A stretch of 34,794 nucleotides of DNA from the NCBI RefSeq assembly GCF_006345805.1, contig NW_021835385.1, positions 1 to 34,794 on the forward strand, given 5' to 3'. This document shows, piece after piece, positions 21,301 to 27,300 of the stretch. The stretch comes from Octopus sinensis. Taxonomy: Eukaryota. Within the stretch, counting starts at the first letter, position 1; the number at the start of each line of letters is the position of its first letter. A program made the position numbers.

Positions 21301-24300
21301 TAGTATCAAGAAATTAAACGAACTTACAATTCTTTTAAATTCGAAAGCCCCGTGAATGTACCTTCTTTGATGGTTGCAATATTGTTGTCCGAAAGATCTC
21401 TATAGCAGTAAAGAAAGCGTGAAATAGATTATATGGAAAACATTTGTGATACGACATCAAACACTGTGACTTCAGAATGAAAGGAAGAAAAAGAAGAAGG
21501 ACGAGGAGGAGGAGGAGGAGAAGAAGAAGAACAAGAAGAAGAAGAAGAAGAAGAAGAAGACGGAATGCGGTATGCAAACTCACATCACACATATCCCACT
21601 CACCCTTGTGGAAACATGATCAGAGAGATTATTCATTTTATATCGCTTCATTGTCACAAGCATATTAGAAAACACACAGGAAATATATCTGCAGTTTAAT
21701 TGTATCAGGCCAAATATTCCAGCTTACAAGTACAGTAAGTATTTCAGGTTTACAGATAGAATGTATGTGACAATATTATTCGAATATATATTTTCCGCTT
21801 CCACTTCAGTTGCTCTATTACATAAATAACGTGAAGTGAATGACAAAATTCGAAGTTGAATGATAATATCGAAACACGAAGGAGAATATTGAATTAGGAA
21901 ATGGAGGAGGATGCAAAATATAAAATAAAGGAATAATATAGTCACATTTCACACAGAACTACACTTATATATGAACATACACATATACTTCAGCTAAAAA
22001 TATCTGATGCAAACATGTAAACTCACAAACGTTACCATTTCTAATACAGATTCATATCAAAATCATTGAAATTTGGGGAACAAAAATGAGTTATTGAGAT
22101 GTGAATTGAAACAAAGCAAATACAATAAAAGAACATTATATTTTTCCTATTATTTCACTTTCTCTCTCAAATTCTCTCTTTCTTTCACATTGTCTATCTC
22201 TCTCCGATTTTCTTTGTATCTTCCTAAATCGTGTTCATTCTTCAAATTTGAATTGATTTTGCCCGGAACAGTCTGAAAATTTATACATTTGTGAGCTTAA
22301 TATCAGCATCAATTATTACTTTCGGAAAATAGTATCAAGAAATTAAACGAACTTACAATTCTTTTAAATTCGAAAGCCCCATGAATGTACCTTCTTTGAT
22401 GGTTGCAATGTTGTTGTCCCAAAGATTTCTATAGCAGTAAAGAAAGCGTGAAATAGATTATATGGAAAACATTTGTGATACGACATCAAACACTGTGACT
22501 TCAGAATGAAAGGAAGAAAAAGAAGAAGGAGGAGGTGGAGGAGAAGAAGAAGAAGAAGAAGAAGAAGAAGAAGAAGAAGAAGAAGAAGAAGAAGAAGAAG
22601 AAGAAGAAGAAGACGGAATGCGGTATGCACACTCACATCACACATATTCCCACTCACCCTTGTGGAAATATGGTGAGAGAGATTATTTATTTCATATCGC
22701 TTCATTGTCACAAGCATATTAGAAAACACACAGGAAATATATCAGCAGTTTAATTGTATCAGGCCAAATATTCCAGCTTACAAGTACAGTAAGTATTTCA
22801 GGTTTACAGATAGAATGTATGTGACTATATTATTCGAATATATTTTCCGCTTCCACTTCAGTTGCTCTATTACATAAATACGGAAGTGAATGACAAAATT
22901 CGAAGTTGAATGATAATATCGAAACACGAAGGAGAATATTGAATTAGGAATGGAGGAGGATGCAAAATATAAAATAAAGGAATAATATAGTCACATTTCA
23001 CACAGAACTACACTTATATATGAACATACACATATACTTCAGCTAAAAATATCTGATGCAAACATGTAAACTCTCAAACGTTACCATTTCTAATACAGAT
23101 TCATATCAAAATCATTGAAATTTGGGGAACAAAAATGAGTTATTGAGATGCGAATTGAAACAAAGCAAATACAGTAAAAGAACGTTATATTTTTCCTATT
23201 ATTTCACTTTCTCTCTCAAATTCTCTCTTTCTTTCACATTGTCTCGCTCTCCCCGATTTTCTTTGTTTCTTCCTAAATCGTGTTCATTCTACAAATTTGA
23301 ATTGATTTTGCCCGGTACAGTCTGAAATTTTATACATTTGTGAGCTTAATATCAGCATCAATTATTACTTTCGGAAAATAGTATCAAGAAATTAAACGAA
23401 CTTACAATTCTTTTAAATTCGAAAGCCCCGTGAATGCACCTTCGTTGATGGTTGAAATGTCGTTCATCCAAAGATCTCTATAGCAGTAAAGAAAGTGTAA
23501 AATAGATTATATGGAAAACATTTGTGATACGACATCAAACACTGTGACTTCAGAATGAAAGGAAGAAAAAAGAAGGAGGAGGAGGAGGAGGAGGAGGAGG
23601 AGAAGAAGAAGAAGAAGAAGAAGAAGAAGAAGAAGAAGAAGAAGAAGACGGAATGCGGTATGCACACTCACATCACACATATTCCCACTCACCCTTGTGG
23701 AAATATGGTGAGAGAGATTATTTATTTCATATCGCTTCATTGTCACAAGCATATTAGAAAACACACAGGAAATATATCTGCAGTTTAATTGTATCAGGCC
23801 AAATATTCCAGCTTACAAGTACAGTAAGTATTTCAGGTTTACAGATAGAATGTATGTGACTATATTATTCGAATATATATTTTCCGCTTCCACTTCAGTT
23901 GCTCTATTACATAAATAACGTGAAGTGAATGACAAAATTCGAAGTTGAATGATAATATCGAAACACGAAGGAGAATATTGAATTAGGAAATGGAGGAGGA
24001 TGAAAAATATAAAATAAAGGAATAATATAGTCACATTTCACACAGAACTACACTTATATATGAACATACACATATACTTCAGCTAAAAATATCTGATGCA
24101 AACATGTAAACTCACAAACGTTATTATTTCTAATACAAATTCATATCAAAATCATTGAAATTTGGGGAACAAAAATGAGTTATTGAGATGCGAATTGAAA
24201 CAAAGCAACTACAATAAAGGAACATTATATTTTTCCTATTATTTCACTTTCTCTCTCAAATTCTCTCTCTTTCTTTCACATTGTCTCGCTCTCTCCGATT

Positions 24301-27300
24301 TTTTTTGTATCTTCCTAAATCGTGTTCATTCTACAAATTCGAATTGATTTTGTTTGGTGCAGTCTGAAAATTTATACATTTGTGAGCTTAATATCAGCAT
24401 CAATTATTACTTTCGGAAAATAGTATCGAGAAATTAAACGAACTTACAATCTCTCTAAATTCGAAAGCCCCGTGAAGAAACCTTCTTTGATGGTTGAAAT
24501 GTCGTTCTTCCAAAGATGTCTATAGCAGTAAAGAAAGTGTAAAATAGATTATATGGAAAACATTTGTGATACGACATCAAACACCGTGACTTCAGAATGA
24601 AAGGAAGAAAAAGAAGAAAGATAACGAAGAAGAAGAAGAAGAAAAAAAGAAGTAGAAGAAGAAGAAGAAGACGAAGAAAAGTAGGAAGAAGAAGGAGAAG
24701 AAGAAGATGGGGAAGAAGAAAAGAAGAAGAAGAAGAAGAAGAAGAGAAGAAGAAGACGAAGAAGTAGAAGAAGATTAAGAAGAGGAAGCAGAATAAGAAG
24801 GAGAGGGGGAGGAGATGGGGAGGGGCAGAGGAGGAGGAGAGATGGGGGTTTAGGAGGAGGACAAAGGAAAGAATGACTGAGGAGGGGCAGCTGGGGGTAT
24901 CAGCAGAAGGAGCAGGAAGAGCATGAGAATGAGAATAAGAGGAAGAATTGGCAGAGAATGGAAAAGAGGGAGACCAGTGACGAAGCAGAAAGTAAAGAGA
25001 AGAAAAAGAAGTAGAAATAGAAGAAAAAAGAGGAAGAAAAAGAAGAAGAAGACAAAGAAGAGGTAGAAAAATAAAAAGAAAAAAAAGGGGTAGAAGAAGA
25101 AGAAAAAGAAAAAGCGGAAAATGTGAAAAAGACGAAGGGGAGGAGAAAAAGACGTAGAAGGAAAACAAGTATCAGAATAAGAGAAGAAAAAAAGAAGAAG
25201 CAGAAGAAAAGAAACAAGGAGAAATAGTAGAAGAAGAGGAAGTTGAAGGAGAAAAAGAAGAAGGAGAAGAAGACGAAGAAGAAGACGAAGAAGAGGAGGA
25301 AGAAGAAGAATAAGAATAAGAAGAAGCAGAAGAAGAATAAGAATAAGAAGAAGAATAAGAAGAAGAAGAAAAAGAAGAAAAAAAGTAGATGAAAACGAAG
25401 AAAAAGAAGAAGAAAGAGAAGGAGAAAGAGAAGAAGAAGAAGAAGAAGAAGAAGAAGAAAAGAAGAAGAAGAAGAAGAAGAAGAAGAAGAAGAAGAAGAA
25501 GAAGAAGAAGAAGAAGAAGAAGAAGAAGAAGAAGAAGAAGAATATACATTGAAAATCCTGATGTTCAAGACGAAACAGAAAATGTTCTCAAAATATCAGG
25601 AAATAATTCAAGGATAGAGCGATAAATTTTGGGCGAGAAGACATTGCTGAAAAATCAGGGAATATACGGAATCAGAATTCAACATATTCAAATGCACTCA
25701 TACACATTCTTATATTCATAGTATCAACGACGGAATGCGGTATGCACACTCACATCACACATATTCCCACTCACGCTTGTGGAAATATGGTGAGAGAGAT
25801 TATTTATTTCATATCGCTTTATTGTCACAAGAATATTAGAAAACACACGCTTACAAGAAATATATCAGCAGTTTAATTGTATCAGGCCAAATATTCCAGC
25901 TTACAAGTACAGTAAGTATTTCAGGTTTACAGATAGAATATATGTGACTATATTCGAATATATATTTTCCGCTTCCACTTCAGTTGCTCTATTACATAAA
26001 TAACATGAAATGAATGACAAAATTCGAAGTTGATTGATAATATCGAAACACGAAGGAGAATATTGAAATACGAAATGGAGGAGGATGCAAAATATAAAAT
26101 AAAGAAATAATATAGTCACGATTTTCTTTGTATCTTCCTAAATCGTGTTCATTCTACATATTCGAATTGATTTTGTTTGGTGCAGTCTGAAATTTTATAC
26201 ATTTGTGAGCTTAATATCAGCATCAATTATTACTTTCGGAAAATAATATCAAGAAATTGAACGAACTTACAATGACTTTAAATTCGAAAGCCCCGTGAAT
26301 AAACCTTCTTTGATGGTTGAAATGCTGTTGGAACCAAGATATCTAAAGCAGTAAAGAAAGAGTAAAATAGATTATATGGAAAATATTTGTGATACGACAT
26401 CAAACACCGTGGCTTTAGTATGAAAGGATGAAAAAGAAGAAAGATAACGATGAAGAAGGAGGAGGAAGAGAAGAAGAAGAAGAAGAAGAAGAAGAAGAAG
26501 AAGAAGAAAAAAGAGGAAGAAGAAGGAGAATTGGGGAGAGTGGAGGAGGATGAGATGTGGGAGTTTAGGAGAGACAAAGGAACGCATGACTGAGGAAGGG
26601 CAGCGGGGGTATCAGCTGAAGTACATGAGAGCAGAGAATTAAAATAAAGAGAATCGGCAGAGAATGGAAAGAGGAGAACCATTGCCGAACAGAAAGTACA
26701 GAGAATAAAAGAGAAGAAAGAAGAAGAGGAAGAGAAGAAGAAGAAAGAAGAGAAGAGAAGAAAATAAGAAGAAGAGAAGAAGTAAAGAAGAAGACGAAAA
26801 AGAAGAAGCTGAGAGAATATTGCTGAAGAAGAAGATGAAAAAGAAGAAGCTGAAGAAGAAGATGCTGAAGAAGAAGATGCTGAGAAGAAGCTGAAGCAGA
26901 AGAAGCTGAAGAAGAAGAATGATGCAGAAGGGGAAGAAGAAGAAGGAGAAGAGAAGAAGAAGAAGAAGAAGAAGAAGAAAAACAAGGCGAAGGAGAAGAG
27001 AGAAGAAAAGGAGAAAAAGAAGAAGAGAAAAAGAAGAGAAGAAGAAGAAGAGAGAAGAAAAATAGAGAGAGAAGAAGAAGAAGAAGAAGAAGAAGAAGAG
27101 AAGAAGAAGAAGAAAGACAAATTATTAAATAATGGAATAATATAGTTACATCTCACACAGAACTACACTTAATATTGATAATACTCACATACTTCAGCTA
27201 AAAATATTTGATGCAAACATGTAAACTCTCAAACGTTGTCATTTCTAATACAAATTCAAATAAAAATCATTGAAATTTGAGGCTCAAATATGAGTTATGG

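What the first reader, a model, noticed from the sequence alone, without database searches (positions are those of the whole stretch)
21328..26342. LRR exons diverge faster than their introns, mainly at ligand-facing residues
Hand comparison: B vs C differ at 9 of 72 nt, changing 7 codons, all non-synonymous. C vs D change 6 codons with none purely synonymous. A vs B show 3 non-synonymous and 1 synonymous change. The ~420-nt intron blocks next to B and C differ at only about 11 positions (~3%). Variation concentrates in xLxxNx (DLSDNN, NLWDNN, DLWMND, HLWKND, YLGSNS, NLHSNN, YLQRNN, ELYRNN) and the last xx (KE, ER, KS, TI, KG). These are the exposed concave beta-sheet positions of LxxLxLxxNxL, enriched here in W/Y/H/D/R as in binding surfaces. 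Scaffold codons are nearly invariant. Inference: strong diversifying selection or targeted mutation/conversion.
Basis: partly seen in the sequence, partly recalled or inferred. Interest (0 to 1): 0.88.

Follow-up and report, generated by a model that had tools for sequence, protein, structure and literature searches.

The report
Fast-evolving tandem LRR exon array
A reverse-strand gene holds at least ten recently duplicated 1-2 kb units, each with one 72-base leucine-rich-repeat exon; the exons have changed about five times faster than their introns, mostly at residues expected to line the binding face, which is a clean but already known kind of positive selection after exon duplication.

Summary
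The minus strand carries ten single-LRR exons between 21328 and 33540. Nine are 72 nt and one is 71 nt. All have AG/GT splice signals and the same phase, and each sits in a 1.0-1.9 kb tandem unit that contains a (GAA)n tract.

- **Exon versus intron:** exon p-distance is 5.6-25% against 2.1-8.1% for introns, higher in 17 of 18 unit pairs. The exon is the sharpest peak of variation in the unit.
- **Whole-exon dN/dS:** pairwise values are not significant. There are only 23 codons.
- **Codon likelihood model:** I split codons a priori by LRR position, with the introns as a neutral yardstick. Synonymous rate is about the intron rate (rho 1.27, n.s.). Omega is 9-19 at the xxLxLxx(Nx) concave positions (P 1e-7 to 5e-11), about 1.8-2.3 at other x positions (n.s. 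vs 1) and 0.14 at scaffold positions.

The best reading is recent tandem exon duplication followed by positive selection on the putative ligand face.

**Caveats:**
- Expression, organism and gene ends are unknown.

The closest published parallels are the brown-alga ROCO 72-nt LRR exon arrays and the Tetrahymena 90-bp LRR exon arrays. I rate it a new member of a known kind.

The parts
21328..21399 (-).
   Evidence: AG acceptor and GT donor. Frame is 1 nt + 23 codons + 2 nt. LRR_8 match E = 9.7e-5, 22.5 bits, below the 27-bit cut-off.
22357..22428 (-).
23406..23477 (-).
24448..24519 (-).
   Evidence: LRR_8 E = 0.0014.
26271..26342 (-). LRR exon E6, 72 nt, YLGSNSISTIKEGLFTGLSNLKS. Its downstream intron lacks about 260 nt present in E7-E9.
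27564..27635 (-). LRR exon E5, 72 nt, NLHSNNIATITEGVFSMLSNLTI (intron family II)
29427..29497 (-). LRR exon E4, 71 nt. A 1-nt deletion in codon 14 gives a frameshift and an in-exon stop (YLQRNNIATITEG then out of frame). Likely an inactivated exon or an assembly error.
30782..30853 (-). LRR exon E3, 72 nt, divergent (YLHNNKISRIEKEMFQGLHNLEI). Its introns do not align with the other units.
   Evidence: LRR_8 E = 6.4e-5.
32312..32383 (-). LRR exon E2, 72 nt, ELYRNNIATINEGAFTGLSNLKG. Introns are family I, but the exon carries 3 private synonymous changes.
33469..33540 (-). LRR exon E1, 72 nt. Identical to E5 except for one 1-nt deletion and one 1-nt insertion, which put 5 residues out of frame (EGVFSM becomes EVYSRL).
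34520..34794 (-). Copy of the intron just downstream of E3 (98.2% identical to 30416-30691). It implies a further E3-like exon just beyond the window end.
24604..25542 (.). It reads as (UUC)n in the minus-strand pre-mRNA and starts about 85 nt upstream of the E7 acceptor. Every unit has such a tract (also 20327-20840, 26712-27114, 28033-28978, 30958-31803, 33625-34517, and 75-81 nt runs at 22538-22612 and 23567-23647). These tracts account for most of the unit-length variation.
21400..24447 (-). Three introns of about 960-970 nt between E7, E8, E9 and E10, 95.4-95.9% identical by BLAST with gaps counted (E7-E9 units). Substitution p-distance is 2.1-4.6%. The span also contains exons E8 and E9, listed separately.
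17693..17768 (-). Candidate further exon in the same phase (acceptor ttttcag), YLHNNLIEKYEDGAFLFLTSIVEI followed by a stop. A possible 3' terminal exon; unproven.
18075..18128 (-). Decayed LRR exon relic (NLACMVNDISTIDENVT then stop), resembling the first half of E8.

Best explanation
The minus strand carries part of a multi-exon gene for an extracellular-type ('typical', 24-residue) leucine-rich-repeat protein. Each turn of the LRR solenoid is encoded by its own 72-nt exon. All introns interrupt a Leu codon after its second base, so any number of exons can be added, lost or skipped without changing the frame.

The array grew recently by unequal crossing-over of 1-2 kb exon-plus-intron units that each contain a (GAA)n microsatellite. 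Neighbouring units are the most alike, and intron divergence is only 2-5%. After duplication, the copies were driven apart by positive selection on the residues of the xxLxLxx(Nx) segment. In solved LRR proteins this segment forms the concave beta-sheet that usually binds ligand. Scaffold residues (L, N, I, F) were kept, and synonymous sites drifted at the intron rate. The outcome is a solenoid whose successive turns offer different side chains, which amounts to a new or broadened binding surface. The most plausible role is as a recognition or adhesion receptor.

**Shown here:** exon structure, duplication, excess of exon over intron change, position-specific omega above 1, and constraint on scaffold positions.

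**Inferred:** that the exons are transcribed and spliced together, that the protein folds as an LRR solenoid, that the concave face binds a ligand, and any immune role.
For: **Structure.**
- 10 of 10 units have AG/GT and the same phase. 9 of 10 exons are exactly 72 nt.
- L2, N5, I7, I10, L18, N20 and L21 are invariant in the 9 aligned exons.
- A profile of the single exons finds LRRC4C, LRIG1, LGR4, biglycan and LINGO-1 in the PDB (10 sequences at E <= 0.01).

**Recent duplication.**
- Introns of E7-E9 are 95.4-95.9% identical over about 880-900 nt.
- Intron-tree branches within family I are 0.004-0.025; exon-tree terminal branches there are about 0.025-0.22.

**Exon excess.**
- Present in 17 of 18 pairs.
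- The exon window has 27 changes against at most 12 in 379 intron windows.

**Selection.**
- Joint codon/intron likelihood: rho(syn/intron) = 1.27 (P = 0.60 against 1), omega concave = 12.6, omega rest = 1.2. Omega concave = 1 is rejected at P = 4e-9.
- The concave non-synonymous rate is about 16 times the intron rate across the whole rho interval.
- The result is the same with the 5-position xxLxLxx set and with either tree.
- The signal is also seen in family I alone (P = 4e-6) and A-D alone (P = 0.003).
- The observed LRT exceeds 44 of 44 null simulations.
- Scaffold omega is 0.14, P = 0.04 against 1.

**Published precedent for the same logic.** Ectocarpus ROCO 72-nt LRR exons (PMC3341825, passages read) and four brown algae (PMC11378527, passages read).
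Against: - There is no expression evidence of any kind.
- 2 of 10 exons are damaged: E4 has a frameshift and stop, and E1 has two indels. The array, or its 5' part, could therefore be decaying, unless those exons are skipped or the indels are assembly errors.
- The gene's 5' end lies outside the window. The 3' end is not established: the candidate last exon ends in a stop without a C-terminal cap.
- Whole-exon pairwise dN/dS is never significant, and it is below 1 for E2 against E6-E10.
- E2 has 3 private synonymous changes in about 15 synonymous sites. I counted roughly 9 private changes in about 540 intron columns by eye from the listing. So at least that exon looks older than its introns.
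- 44 of 91 informative site pairs are incompatible. The fixed-tree codon model is therefore an approximation, and recombination is known to inflate omega estimates.
- Several variable codons differ at 2-3 bases, and multi-nucleotide events also inflate omega.
- The codon model is my own GY94/F1x4 implementation and was not cross-checked with PAML.
- Only 23 codons by 8 sequences were analysed. Paralogous repeats of one gene were compared, not orthologues.
- The concave-face assignment rests on the canonical LRR register, not on a model of this protein.
Confidence: 0.6

Rival explanations
1. Concerted evolution of introns with protected exons. The exon copies are older than they look. Unequal crossing-over and gene conversion keep homogenising the units, and selection removes events that would erase differences in the 72-nt exon. 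Introns therefore stay alike while exons stay different. This is diversity-maintaining selection rather than recent adaptive bursts.
For: - 44 of 91 informative site pairs fail the four-gamete test, and mosaic blocks are seen in the introns.
- rho (syn/intron) rises to 2.1-2.9 in family I alone.
- E2 pairs have dS 0.25-0.43 against intron p-distance 0.035-0.050.
- Between families I and II the exon and intron distances are much closer to each other.
Against: - rho is not significantly above 1 in any data set (P = 0.60, 0.23, 0.63). Its interval for 8 exons is about 0.45-2.75.
- Run-length (GENECONV-like) tests give a smallest P of 0.024 among 10 pairs, not significant after correction. The PHI-like test gives P = 0.058.
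- Even with rho free, omega at concave codons stays far above 1, so selection on those residues is needed in this model too.
Confidence: 0.15
2. A mutational process confined to the exon. This would be short-tract ectopic gene conversion from other LRR exons in the genome (homology ends at the exon borders), or some targeted hypermutation. It would import clustered changes without any selection for diversity.
For: - Changes stop sharply at the exon borders. The 72 columns after the donor have 1-3 changes against 17-27 in the exon.
- Several codons differ at 2-3 bases between close copies: codon 4 ATG/GAC, codon 14 GCA/TTC, codon 23 GAA/AGA.
- Other LRR-like sequence exists in the window.
- Donors elsewhere in the genome could not be searched.
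Against: - A tract or hypermutation process should raise synonymous change as well, but rho is 1.27 (n.s.). The model with omega concave = 1 and a free exon rate (rho 5.6) is rejected at P = 4e-9.
- Changed codons are interleaved with unchanged scaffold codons at single-codon resolution.
- No stop codon and only 1 scaffold replacement occur in the 8 analysed exons.
Confidence: 0.1
3. A non-functional remnant or artefact. The array is a decaying pseudogene or a macrosatellite that captured an LRR exon, or is partly an assembly product, and the pattern has no present function.
For: - E4 is frameshifted with a stop, and E1 has two indels.
- A decayed relic exon lies at 18075-18128, and TE-like (reverse-transcriptase) fragments lie between the array and the next LRR-like sequence.
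- No cap domains or other domains could be tied to the array. Single-exon Pfam scores are below the cut-off.
- There are no expression data.
Against: - Neutral decay predicts exon divergence equal to intron divergence and no position effect. The observed values are a 2.4-8-fold excess, a 21/10/1 split of changes over concave, other-x and scaffold positions, and scaffold omega of 0.14.
- 10 of 10 splice-site pairs are intact.
- 8 of 10 exons have open frames.
Confidence: 0.1

Closest known systems
Brown-alga (Ectocarpus, Saccharina and others) ROCO 'type I' LRR exon arrays (Zambounis et al. 2012, PMC3341825; Teng et al. 2024, PMC11378527; passages read, supplements not seen)
   Same: - One LRR per 72-nt exon.
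- Same-phase introns, so exons can be duplicated or skipped in frame.
- Intragenic tandem duplication ('exon shuffling').
- Inactivated exons within the array.
- Positive selection at the x positions of xxLxLxx on the concave face. Their sites 15, 17, 19 and 20 correspond to positions 3, 5, 7 and 8 here.
   Different: - Their repeat consensus is GxxPxxLxxxxxLxxLxLxxNxLx, with the whole conserved segment inside one exon. Here the consensus is xLxxNxIxxIxEGxFxGLxNLxx, and the intron splits the Leu codon in the middle of LxxLxL, so an independent origin is likely.
- Their arrays are attached to ROC-COR GTPase domains. No such domain is seen in this window.
- They report LRR exons in reverse orientation inside introns. 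None were found here.
- This window is AT-rich, with long microsatellite-bearing introns, and its best structural matches are animal proteins.
- In the passages I read I saw no exon-versus-intron divergence comparison.
Tetrahymena 90-bp LRR exon arrays (Xiong et al. 2019, PMC6564038; abstract and passages read)
   Same: - Tandem arrays of equal-length LRR exons.
- Extreme phase-2 intron bias, with a 'junction' codon made of 2 + 1 bases.
- Recent clonal expansion of exon-plus-intron units, attributed to unequal crossing-over.
   Different: - 90-bp rather than 72-bp exons.
- Introns of about 230-260 bp rather than 1-1.9 kb.
- A ciliate genome with thousands of such genes.
- The word search for 'positive selection' found 0 occurrences in that paper's main text.
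Hypervariable solvent-exposed xxLxLxx residues of plant resistance and PGIP proteins and of lamprey variable lymphocyte receptors (as summarised in PMC3341825 and PMC3138743, passages read; details otherwise recalled)
   Same: [quoted passage not shown]
   Different: - Those comparisons are between genes, alleles or somatically assembled cassettes. Here they are between exons of one gene, with their own introns as an internal neutral control.
- VLR cassettes are not spliced exons. All ten units here have splice signals.
'Accelerated evolution' of venom genes, where coding exons diverge faster than introns (PMC2711939 and PMC6062510: search listing and abstract starts only; the classic PLA2 work is recalled, not read)
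   Same: Exons more divergent than flanking non-coding sequence, read as positive selection on surface residues.
   Different: Those are paralogous genes of a different fold. They are not a repeat array within one gene.
Animal genes with one LRR per ~72-bp exon and phase-2 introns (gonadotropin receptors: mentioned in PMC11378527, passage read; Slit and LGR4-6: recalled, not checked)
   Same: The modular exon = one LRR layout with symmetric phase. LGR4 is among the best PDB matches of the exon profile.
   Different: Those arrays are ancient and conserved. They are not young near-identical units with rapidly diverging exons. No 7TM, EGF or other partner domain is visible here.
Sea-urchin Sp185/333 cluster: segmental duplications bounded by microsatellites (PMC3091723, abstract read)
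   Same: Tandem duplicated units carrying microsatellites that are proposed to promote duplication or conversion in a diversifying recognition gene family.
   Different: That case involves whole two-exon genes of about 4.5 kb, not single exons, and the proteins are not LRR proteins.

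Membership tests
Typical-type (24-residue) extracellular LRR proteins (Pfam LRR_8 class; LRRC4/LRIG/LGR/LINGO-like) | Repeats of about 24 residues with LxxLxLxxNxL and a conserved Phe in the variable segment | tested here: met
   In the alignment of 9 exons, L2, N5, I7, I10, L18, N20 and L21 are invariant, and the Phe is present in 8 of 9. Period is 72 nt.
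Typical-type (24-residue) extracellular LRR proteins (Pfam LRR_8 class; LRRC4/LRIG/LGR/LINGO-like) | Pfam LRR_8 match at or above the gathering score | tested here: inconclusive
The three single exons tested score 18.8-23.1 bits (E 6e-5 to 1.4e-3) against a 27-bit cut-off. The model spans 61 positions, while one exon gives only 23 residues.
Typical-type (24-residue) extracellular LRR proteins (Pfam LRR_8 class; LRRC4/LRIG/LGR/LINGO-like) | Cysteine-rich N- and C-terminal caps (LRRNT/LRRCT) and a signal peptide | tested here: inconclusive
   The 5' end is outside the window. An ORF with an LRRCT-like cysteine pattern lies at 13857-14099(-), about 7 kb away. It has no Pfam hit, no PDB hit below E = 2 and only weak Atlas leads of 0.84. 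It cannot be linked to the array.
Single-LRR-exon arrays evolving by intragenic exon duplication (brown-alga ROCO type I; Tetrahymena 90-bp arrays) | Equal-length exons, one repeat each, all introns in the same phase | tested here: met
   9 of 10 exons are 72 nt. 10 of 10 have the same 1 + 23 codons + 2 layout.
Single-LRR-exon arrays evolving by intragenic exon duplication (brown-alga ROCO type I; Tetrahymena 90-bp arrays) | Exon-plus-intron units recently duplicated in tandem | tested here: met
   Intron identity is 90-96% within family I and 91-95% within family II. Adjacent units are the most similar.
Single-LRR-exon arrays evolving by intragenic exon duplication (brown-alga ROCO type I; Tetrahymena 90-bp arrays) | Positive selection at concave-face x positions | tested here: met
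   Omega is 9-19 at these positions, P from 1e-7 to 5e-11. Bootstrap check.
Single-LRR-exon arrays evolving by intragenic exon duplication (brown-alga ROCO type I; Tetrahymena 90-bp arrays) | ROC-COR GTPase domain downstream (ROCO membership proper) and the GxxPxxL repeat signature | tested here: not met
   The repeat consensus lacks GxxPxxL. No ROC/COR match appeared among the 14 different ORFs and exons scanned in Pfam. Only part of the gene is in the window, so it works like these arrays but is not a ROCO gene on present evidence.
Single-LRR-exon arrays evolving by intragenic exon duplication (brown-alga ROCO type I; Tetrahymena 90-bp arrays) | Inactivated or reverse-oriented LRR exons inside the array | tested here: inconclusive
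   Inactivated exons are present: E4, and the relic at 18075-18128. No plus-strand LRR exon scored above 7.4 bits in the six-frame HMM scan, against 50-59 bits for the intact exons.
VLR-type germline cassettes for somatic assembly | Cassettes without splice signals, flanking an incomplete germline gene | tested here: not met
   All 10 units have canonical acceptor and donor sites in one orientation.
Mutually exclusive or combinatorial alternative-exon clusters (Dscam-like logic) | Transcript evidence of alternative inclusion; competing intronic RNA pairings | not testable with these tools
   No transcript data are available. A 17-nt perfect inverted repeat is present in the introns, and one arm occurs in every unit. 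This is only a lead.

The most novel reading that the evidence does not exclude
The array may be a germline cassette system of an animal recognition receptor. Because every exon is a frame-neutral 72-nt module, different subsets of the diversified LRR exons could be spliced into different transcripts. That would be combinatorial or mutually exclusive inclusion, an LRR counterpart of Dscam, as proposed for brown-alga ROCO genes. Two intronic features would then act as the regulators of exon choice: the long (UUC)n tracts about 85-100 nt upstream of each acceptor, and the 17-nt inverted repeats shared between introns. Damaged exons such as E4 would simply be skipped. On this reading, positive selection would be shaping a repertoire rather than a single binding surface.
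Probability: 0.12. Interest if true: 0.8.

Novelty: new member of a known kind. Interest (0 to 1): 0.45.

Why it matters
The locus is an unusually clean natural experiment. The copies are so young that their own introns give an internal neutral rate, so the excess of amino-acid change at the predicted binding face can be measured directly: about 16 times the intron rate. It shows in one gene how a repeat protein can lengthen by unequal crossing-over and then acquire new surface chemistry turn by turn. If the source is an animal, as the best structural matches suggest, it extends a pattern documented in brown algae and ciliates to a third lineage. It would also point to a candidate fast-evolving recognition receptor worth expression and binding studies. 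It does not reveal a new mechanism.

Tried and rejected
**Pairwise Nei-Gojobori dN/dS on whole exons.** This was too weak. No pair of 28 was significant, and comparisons with E3 were saturated (pS 0.62-0.82). I replaced it with a position-partitioned codon likelihood.

**First exon alignment.** It mis-scored E1 because its two indels were forced into mismatches. I corrected this. The E1-E5 and E1-E4 rows should be disregarded.

**Rows dropped from the codon models.**
- E3, because its introns are unalignable and its synonymous sites are saturated.
- E1, because its substitutions are identical to E5 and it has two indels.
- Codon 14 of E4 was treated as missing.
- E6 contributes only about 283 intron columns because of a deletion.

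**Gene-conversion tests.**
- Run-length test: smallest P = 0.024 among 10 pairs.
- PHI-like test: P = 0.058.
- Neither is convincing. The script then crashed (division by zero) on the 3-sequence set after printing its run-length rows, and the third data set was never run.

**rho profile.** The fits at rho = 5 and 6 did not converge and were ignored.

**snoRNA-host-like explanation for conserved introns.** There were 0 Rfam matches at gathering thresholds and 0 tRNAs in the whole window.

**Linking the array to a cap domain.** The LRRCT-like ORF at 13857-14099 gave 0 Pfam families, one PDB hit at E = 2 that is irrelevant, and Atlas scores of at most 0.84, which are leads only.

**Homology of the candidate terminal exon region and of 19800-20330 to the array.** No BLAST hits.

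**Literature searches.**
- 'tandem exon duplication' + 'leucine-rich repeat' returned 1 irrelevant paper.
- 'LRR' + 'each LRR' + '72 bp' + 'exon' returned 0.
- I found no report of this kind of array in an animal. These searches cover only the held library.

**Not done.**
Exons were searched one at a time or as an alignment of single exons, so there is no AlphaFold mapping and no full-length family search.
- PAML/codeml and GENECONV are not installed, so I used my own implementations.
- The genome-contig collection holds only bacteria and archaea and was not used.
- As a result, relatives elsewhere, donor exons, the source organism and orthologues all stayed unchecked.
- Supplementary files of PMC3341825 and PMC11378527 (exon lists, PAML tables) could bear on how similar those arrays are. 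They were not seen.

Full report
**What is there.**

The window is AT-rich (GC 0.27-0.42 per kb) and full of simple repeats. On the minus strand, between 21328 and 33540, a scan for AG-72 nt-GT units with an LRR motif, plus inspection of one further unit, gives ten exons, E1 to E10 in transcript order.

- Nine exons are exactly 72 nt.
- All ten have a pyrimidine-rich acceptor (ctatag in 8, ctttag and cttcag in one each) and a gtaagt or gtgagt donor.
- All share one layout: 1 base that completes a Leu codon begun by the 'TT' at the end of the previous exon, then 23 codons, then 'TT'.
- Each exon therefore encodes one 24-residue repeat, xLxxNxIxxIxEGxFxGLSNLxx(L). L, N, I, I, L, N and L are invariant in the 9 aligned exons.

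Family and structure matches:

- The three single exons tested match Pfam LRR_8 below the cut-off, at 18.8-23.1 bits against 27.
- A profile of the single exons finds LRRC4C, LRIG1, LGR4, biglycan and LINGO-1 among solved structures. This is the 'typical' extracellular LRR class of animals.
- I did not build, search or fold a joined (spliced) product. Exons were handled one by one or as an alignment of single exons.

**Architecture of the array.**

- Each exon lies in a 1.0-1.9 kb unit. In transcript order a unit runs: exon, then 510-900 nt of unique intron, then an imperfect (UUC)n tract ((GAA)n on the plus strand, 75 to 939 nt), then about 85-100 nt, then the next acceptor.
- Intron similarity defines family I (units of E2 and E6-E10, 90-96% identical) and family II (E1, E4, E5, 91-95%). 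The two families are about 81% identical to each other. E3 stands alone.
- The last 275 bases of the window are 98.2% identical to the intron below E3, so another E3-like exon should lie just beyond the window.
- Adjacent units are the most similar. Intron p-distances are E9-E10 0.021, E8-E9 0.026, E7-E8 0.026 and E7-E10 0.046. This is what stepwise unequal crossing-over would give.

**Checking the observation.**

- E9/E8: 9 of 72 nt in 7 codons, all non-synonymous.
- E8/E7: 10 of 72 nt in 6 codons.
- E10/E9: 3 non-synonymous and 1 synonymous.
- Introns of E8/E9: 23 of 880 (2.6%).

Across 18 within-family pairs:

- Exon p-distance (0.056-0.25) is 2.4-8.1 times intron p-distance (0.021-0.081). 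Fisher P is below 0.05 in 17 of 18.
- The two pairs with E1 were mis-scored. Re-alignment shows that the E1 exon equals the E5 exon except for two 1-nt indels, with 0 substitutions. So 17 of 18 pairs show the excess, and one pair shows none.

Along the unit, the exon is a sharp peak:

- For E2 and E7-E10 there are 27 minimum changes in the 72 exon columns, against a mean of 6.3 and a maximum of 12 in 379 non-overlapping intron windows.
- There are only 3 changes in the 72 columns after the donor.

**Where the changes fall.**

I used the canonical register L1 x2 x3 L4 x5 L6 x7 x8 N9 x10 I11. The five x of xxLxLxx are described as the variable beta-strand/beta-turn residues of the concave face in PMC3138743 (passages read). 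Adding position 10 is my recollection of VLR work.

Minimum amino-acid changes in 8 exons:

| Position class | Changes | Positions |
|---|---|---|
| Concave | 21 | 6 |
| Other x | 10 | 10 |
| Scaffold | 1 | 7 |

- The single scaffold change is in the damaged exon E4.
- Exact permutation among x positions gives 35 of 8008.
- Position 18, just before the conserved Phe, is also very variable (5 states), so the concave face is the main site of change but not the only one.
- In 9 exons (E3 included), aromatic residues plus His make up 10 of 54 concave residues, against 2 of 89 at other x positions. These counts are not independent events: the Trp in E7-E9 is probably one change.

**Selection tests.**

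Whole-exon pairwise Nei-Gojobori ratios:

- Above 1 in 9 of 10 pairs among E6-E10 (0.78-14.6), but never significant (P 0.11-0.82).
- Below 1 for E2 against each of E6-E10 (0.38-0.91).

I therefore wrote a GY94 codon likelihood (F1x4) with codons split a priori by structural class.

Exons alone (8 rows: E2, E4-E10):

| Quantity | Value (two trees) | P |
|---|---|---|
| One-ratio omega | 2.2-2.5 | 0.04-0.02 against 1 |
| Omega, concave codons | 9.4-13.3 | 1e-7 to 4e-9 against 1 |
| Omega, rest | 1.1-1.3 | not tested separately |

Exons and introns fitted on shared branch lengths:

- The synonymous rate is 1.27 times the intron rate (P = 0.60 against 1). The approximate 95% interval is 0.45-2.75.
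- The concave non-synonymous rate is about 16 times the intron rate throughout that interval.
- Omega concave = 1 is rejected at P = 4e-9 even when the exon is allowed its own overall rate.

By position class:

- Concave codons exceed the other x codons: 14.5 against 2.3, P = 9e-8.
- Other x codons are compatible with neutrality: 1.8, P = 0.25.
- Scaffold codons are constrained: 0.14, P = 0.04.

Robustness:

- In 44 simulations under the null the statistic reached at most 11.7, and 3 of 44 were above 3.84. The observed value is 28.0.

**What weakens it.**

- The comparison is between paralogous repeats of one gene, with 23 codons and 8 rows, in a home-made model.
- 44 of 91 pairs of informative sites fail the four-gamete test, so units have recombined. 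A fixed tree then over-counts changes.
- Tract tests are only suggestive: smallest P = 0.024 of 10 pairs, and PHI-like P = 0.058.
- Several variable codons differ at two or three bases.
- E2 carries three private synonymous changes, although its introns are only 3.5-5% from those of E7-E10. Its exon looks older than its introns.
- E4 has lost one base, giving a frameshift and stop. E1 has two compensating indels that put five residues, including the Phe, out of frame. These may be real decay, skipped exons or assembly errors.
- There is no transcript evidence.
- The 5' end is off the window.
- Downstream of E10 I find only three things:
  - A decayed relic at 18075-18128.
  - A same-phase candidate exon that runs into a stop at 17693-17768.
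  - Seven kb away, a frameshifted LRR-like stretch with an LRRCT-like cysteine pattern that no tool confirmed.

**Explanation and rivals.**

- **Best reading (0.6):** recent tandem duplication of frame-neutral exon-intron units, followed by positive selection on the predicted ligand face.
- **Concerted evolution (0.15):** introns are homogenised while selection preserves exon differences. This also needs selection, and it predicts synonymous divergence above intron divergence, which is hinted at but not shown.
- **Exon-limited mutational or conversion process (0.1):** disfavoured by the normal synonymous rate and the codon-by-codon interleaving of changed and unchanged positions. Donors elsewhere could not be searched.
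- **Functionless remnant or artefact (0.1):** does not explain the position effect.
- **snoRNA-host-like reading:** finds no support (0 Rfam and 0 tRNA hits).

**Comparison with what is known.**

- The same logic is published for brown-alga ROCO genes: one LRR per equal-length exon, symmetric phase, intragenic duplication, inactivated exons and positive selection at xxLxLxx. Those arrays have 72-nt exons, selected sites equivalent to positions 3, 5, 7 and 8 here, and reported alternative splicing (PMC3341825 and PMC11378527, passages read).
- Apart from the selection test, the same is published for Tetrahymena 90-bp LRR exon arrays with phase-2 introns (PMC6564038, abstract and passages read).
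- This locus differs from both in repeat consensus, in where the intron cuts the repeat, in its long microsatellite-bearing introns, in lacking any visible ROC-COR domain, and in resembling animal extracellular LRR proteins.
- It is therefore a new member of a known kind, not a member of the ROCO family.
- Microsatellite-bounded duplications in a diversifying gene cluster have a parallel in sea-urchin Sp185/333 (PMC3091723, abstract read).
- My searches found no description of such an array in an animal, but they cover only the held library.

**Verdict.**

Interest is moderate: this is a tidy, quantifiable example rather than a surprise. The boldest reading the data allow is a combinatorially spliced LRR cassette repertoire. 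It rests only on frame-neutral exons, shared intronic inverted repeats (a predicted hairpin of -37 kcal/mol, z = -3.2) and long (UUC)n tracts, and it needs transcript data.

Noticed in passing
window 22819-22835 with 22980-22996, and 23854-23870 with 24020-24036 (further copies of one arm at 20923-20939, 21931-21947, 29000-29016 and, imperfect, in other units): A perfect 17-nt inverted repeat sits inside the introns, with arms 126-149 nt apart. The RNA of 22810-23005(-) is predicted to fold at -37.2 kcal/mol (z = -3.2; 1 of 200 shuffles folds as well). One arm is present in most units, so pairing between different introns is possible. It may be a MITE-like remnant or a splicing-relevant structure.
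   Followed up: partly
window 20327-20840, 24604-25542, 26712-27114, 28033-28978, 30958-31803, 33625-34517: Very long imperfect (GAA)n tracts of 400-940 nt, one per unit, all in the same orientation. They make strong purine skew on the plus strand and would read as (UUC)n about 85-100 nt upstream of each acceptor in the pre-mRNA.
   Followed up: partly
window 13857-14336, minus strand: An LRR-like coding stretch is spread over three reading frames: ..IPDTKMSLNYNKIESF.., ..AFINLLKFYNLCFLSNHIGI.., then an ORF with an LRRCT-like C-x-C...C...C pattern. It looks like a small frameshifted, intron-poor LRR gene or pseudogene. It has no Pfam or PDB support, and Atlas leads of 0.84 to Slit/VLR fragments only.
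   Followed up: partly
window 10287-10571(-), 9981-10259(-), 19102-19479(-), 19478-19759(+): ORF fragments that look like pieces of non-LTR retrotransposon reverse transcriptase. Only 10287-10571 gave a weak Pfam RVT_1 match (E = 0.017, below cut-off). The pair at 19.1-19.8 kb lies between the array and the downstream LRR-like sequences.
   Followed up: partly
window 6660-6923(-) and 8694-9020(-): Two cysteine-rich ORFs (..LQCQTCSGITCNDSKVTSC.. and ..CTGCCVGHLCNKN..). Their cysteine spacing recalls a Ly6/uPAR three-finger domain split over two exons. That motif is recalled from memory, and Pfam gave no hit.
   Followed up: partly
window 2465-2848(+) vs 3715-4077(-); 449-560(+) vs 4482-4590(+): Near-identical ORF translations show an inverted duplication of a TA/TG-rich segment. 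They also show two direct copies of a short element (..LLKNTTRSPV.DSSSQPHDRKLD.LTTEPCAF..) flanking it.
   Followed up: no
window 15334-15487: An (ATG)n microsatellite of about 51 copies. Other long simple repeats are (TA)107 at 1039-1251 and (GTAT)78 at 10861-11168.
   Followed up: no
window 25545-25730: About 190 nt of non-repeat sequence is present only in the E6-E7 intron, between the (GAA)n tract and the conserved intron block. It aligns with no other unit.
   Followed up: no
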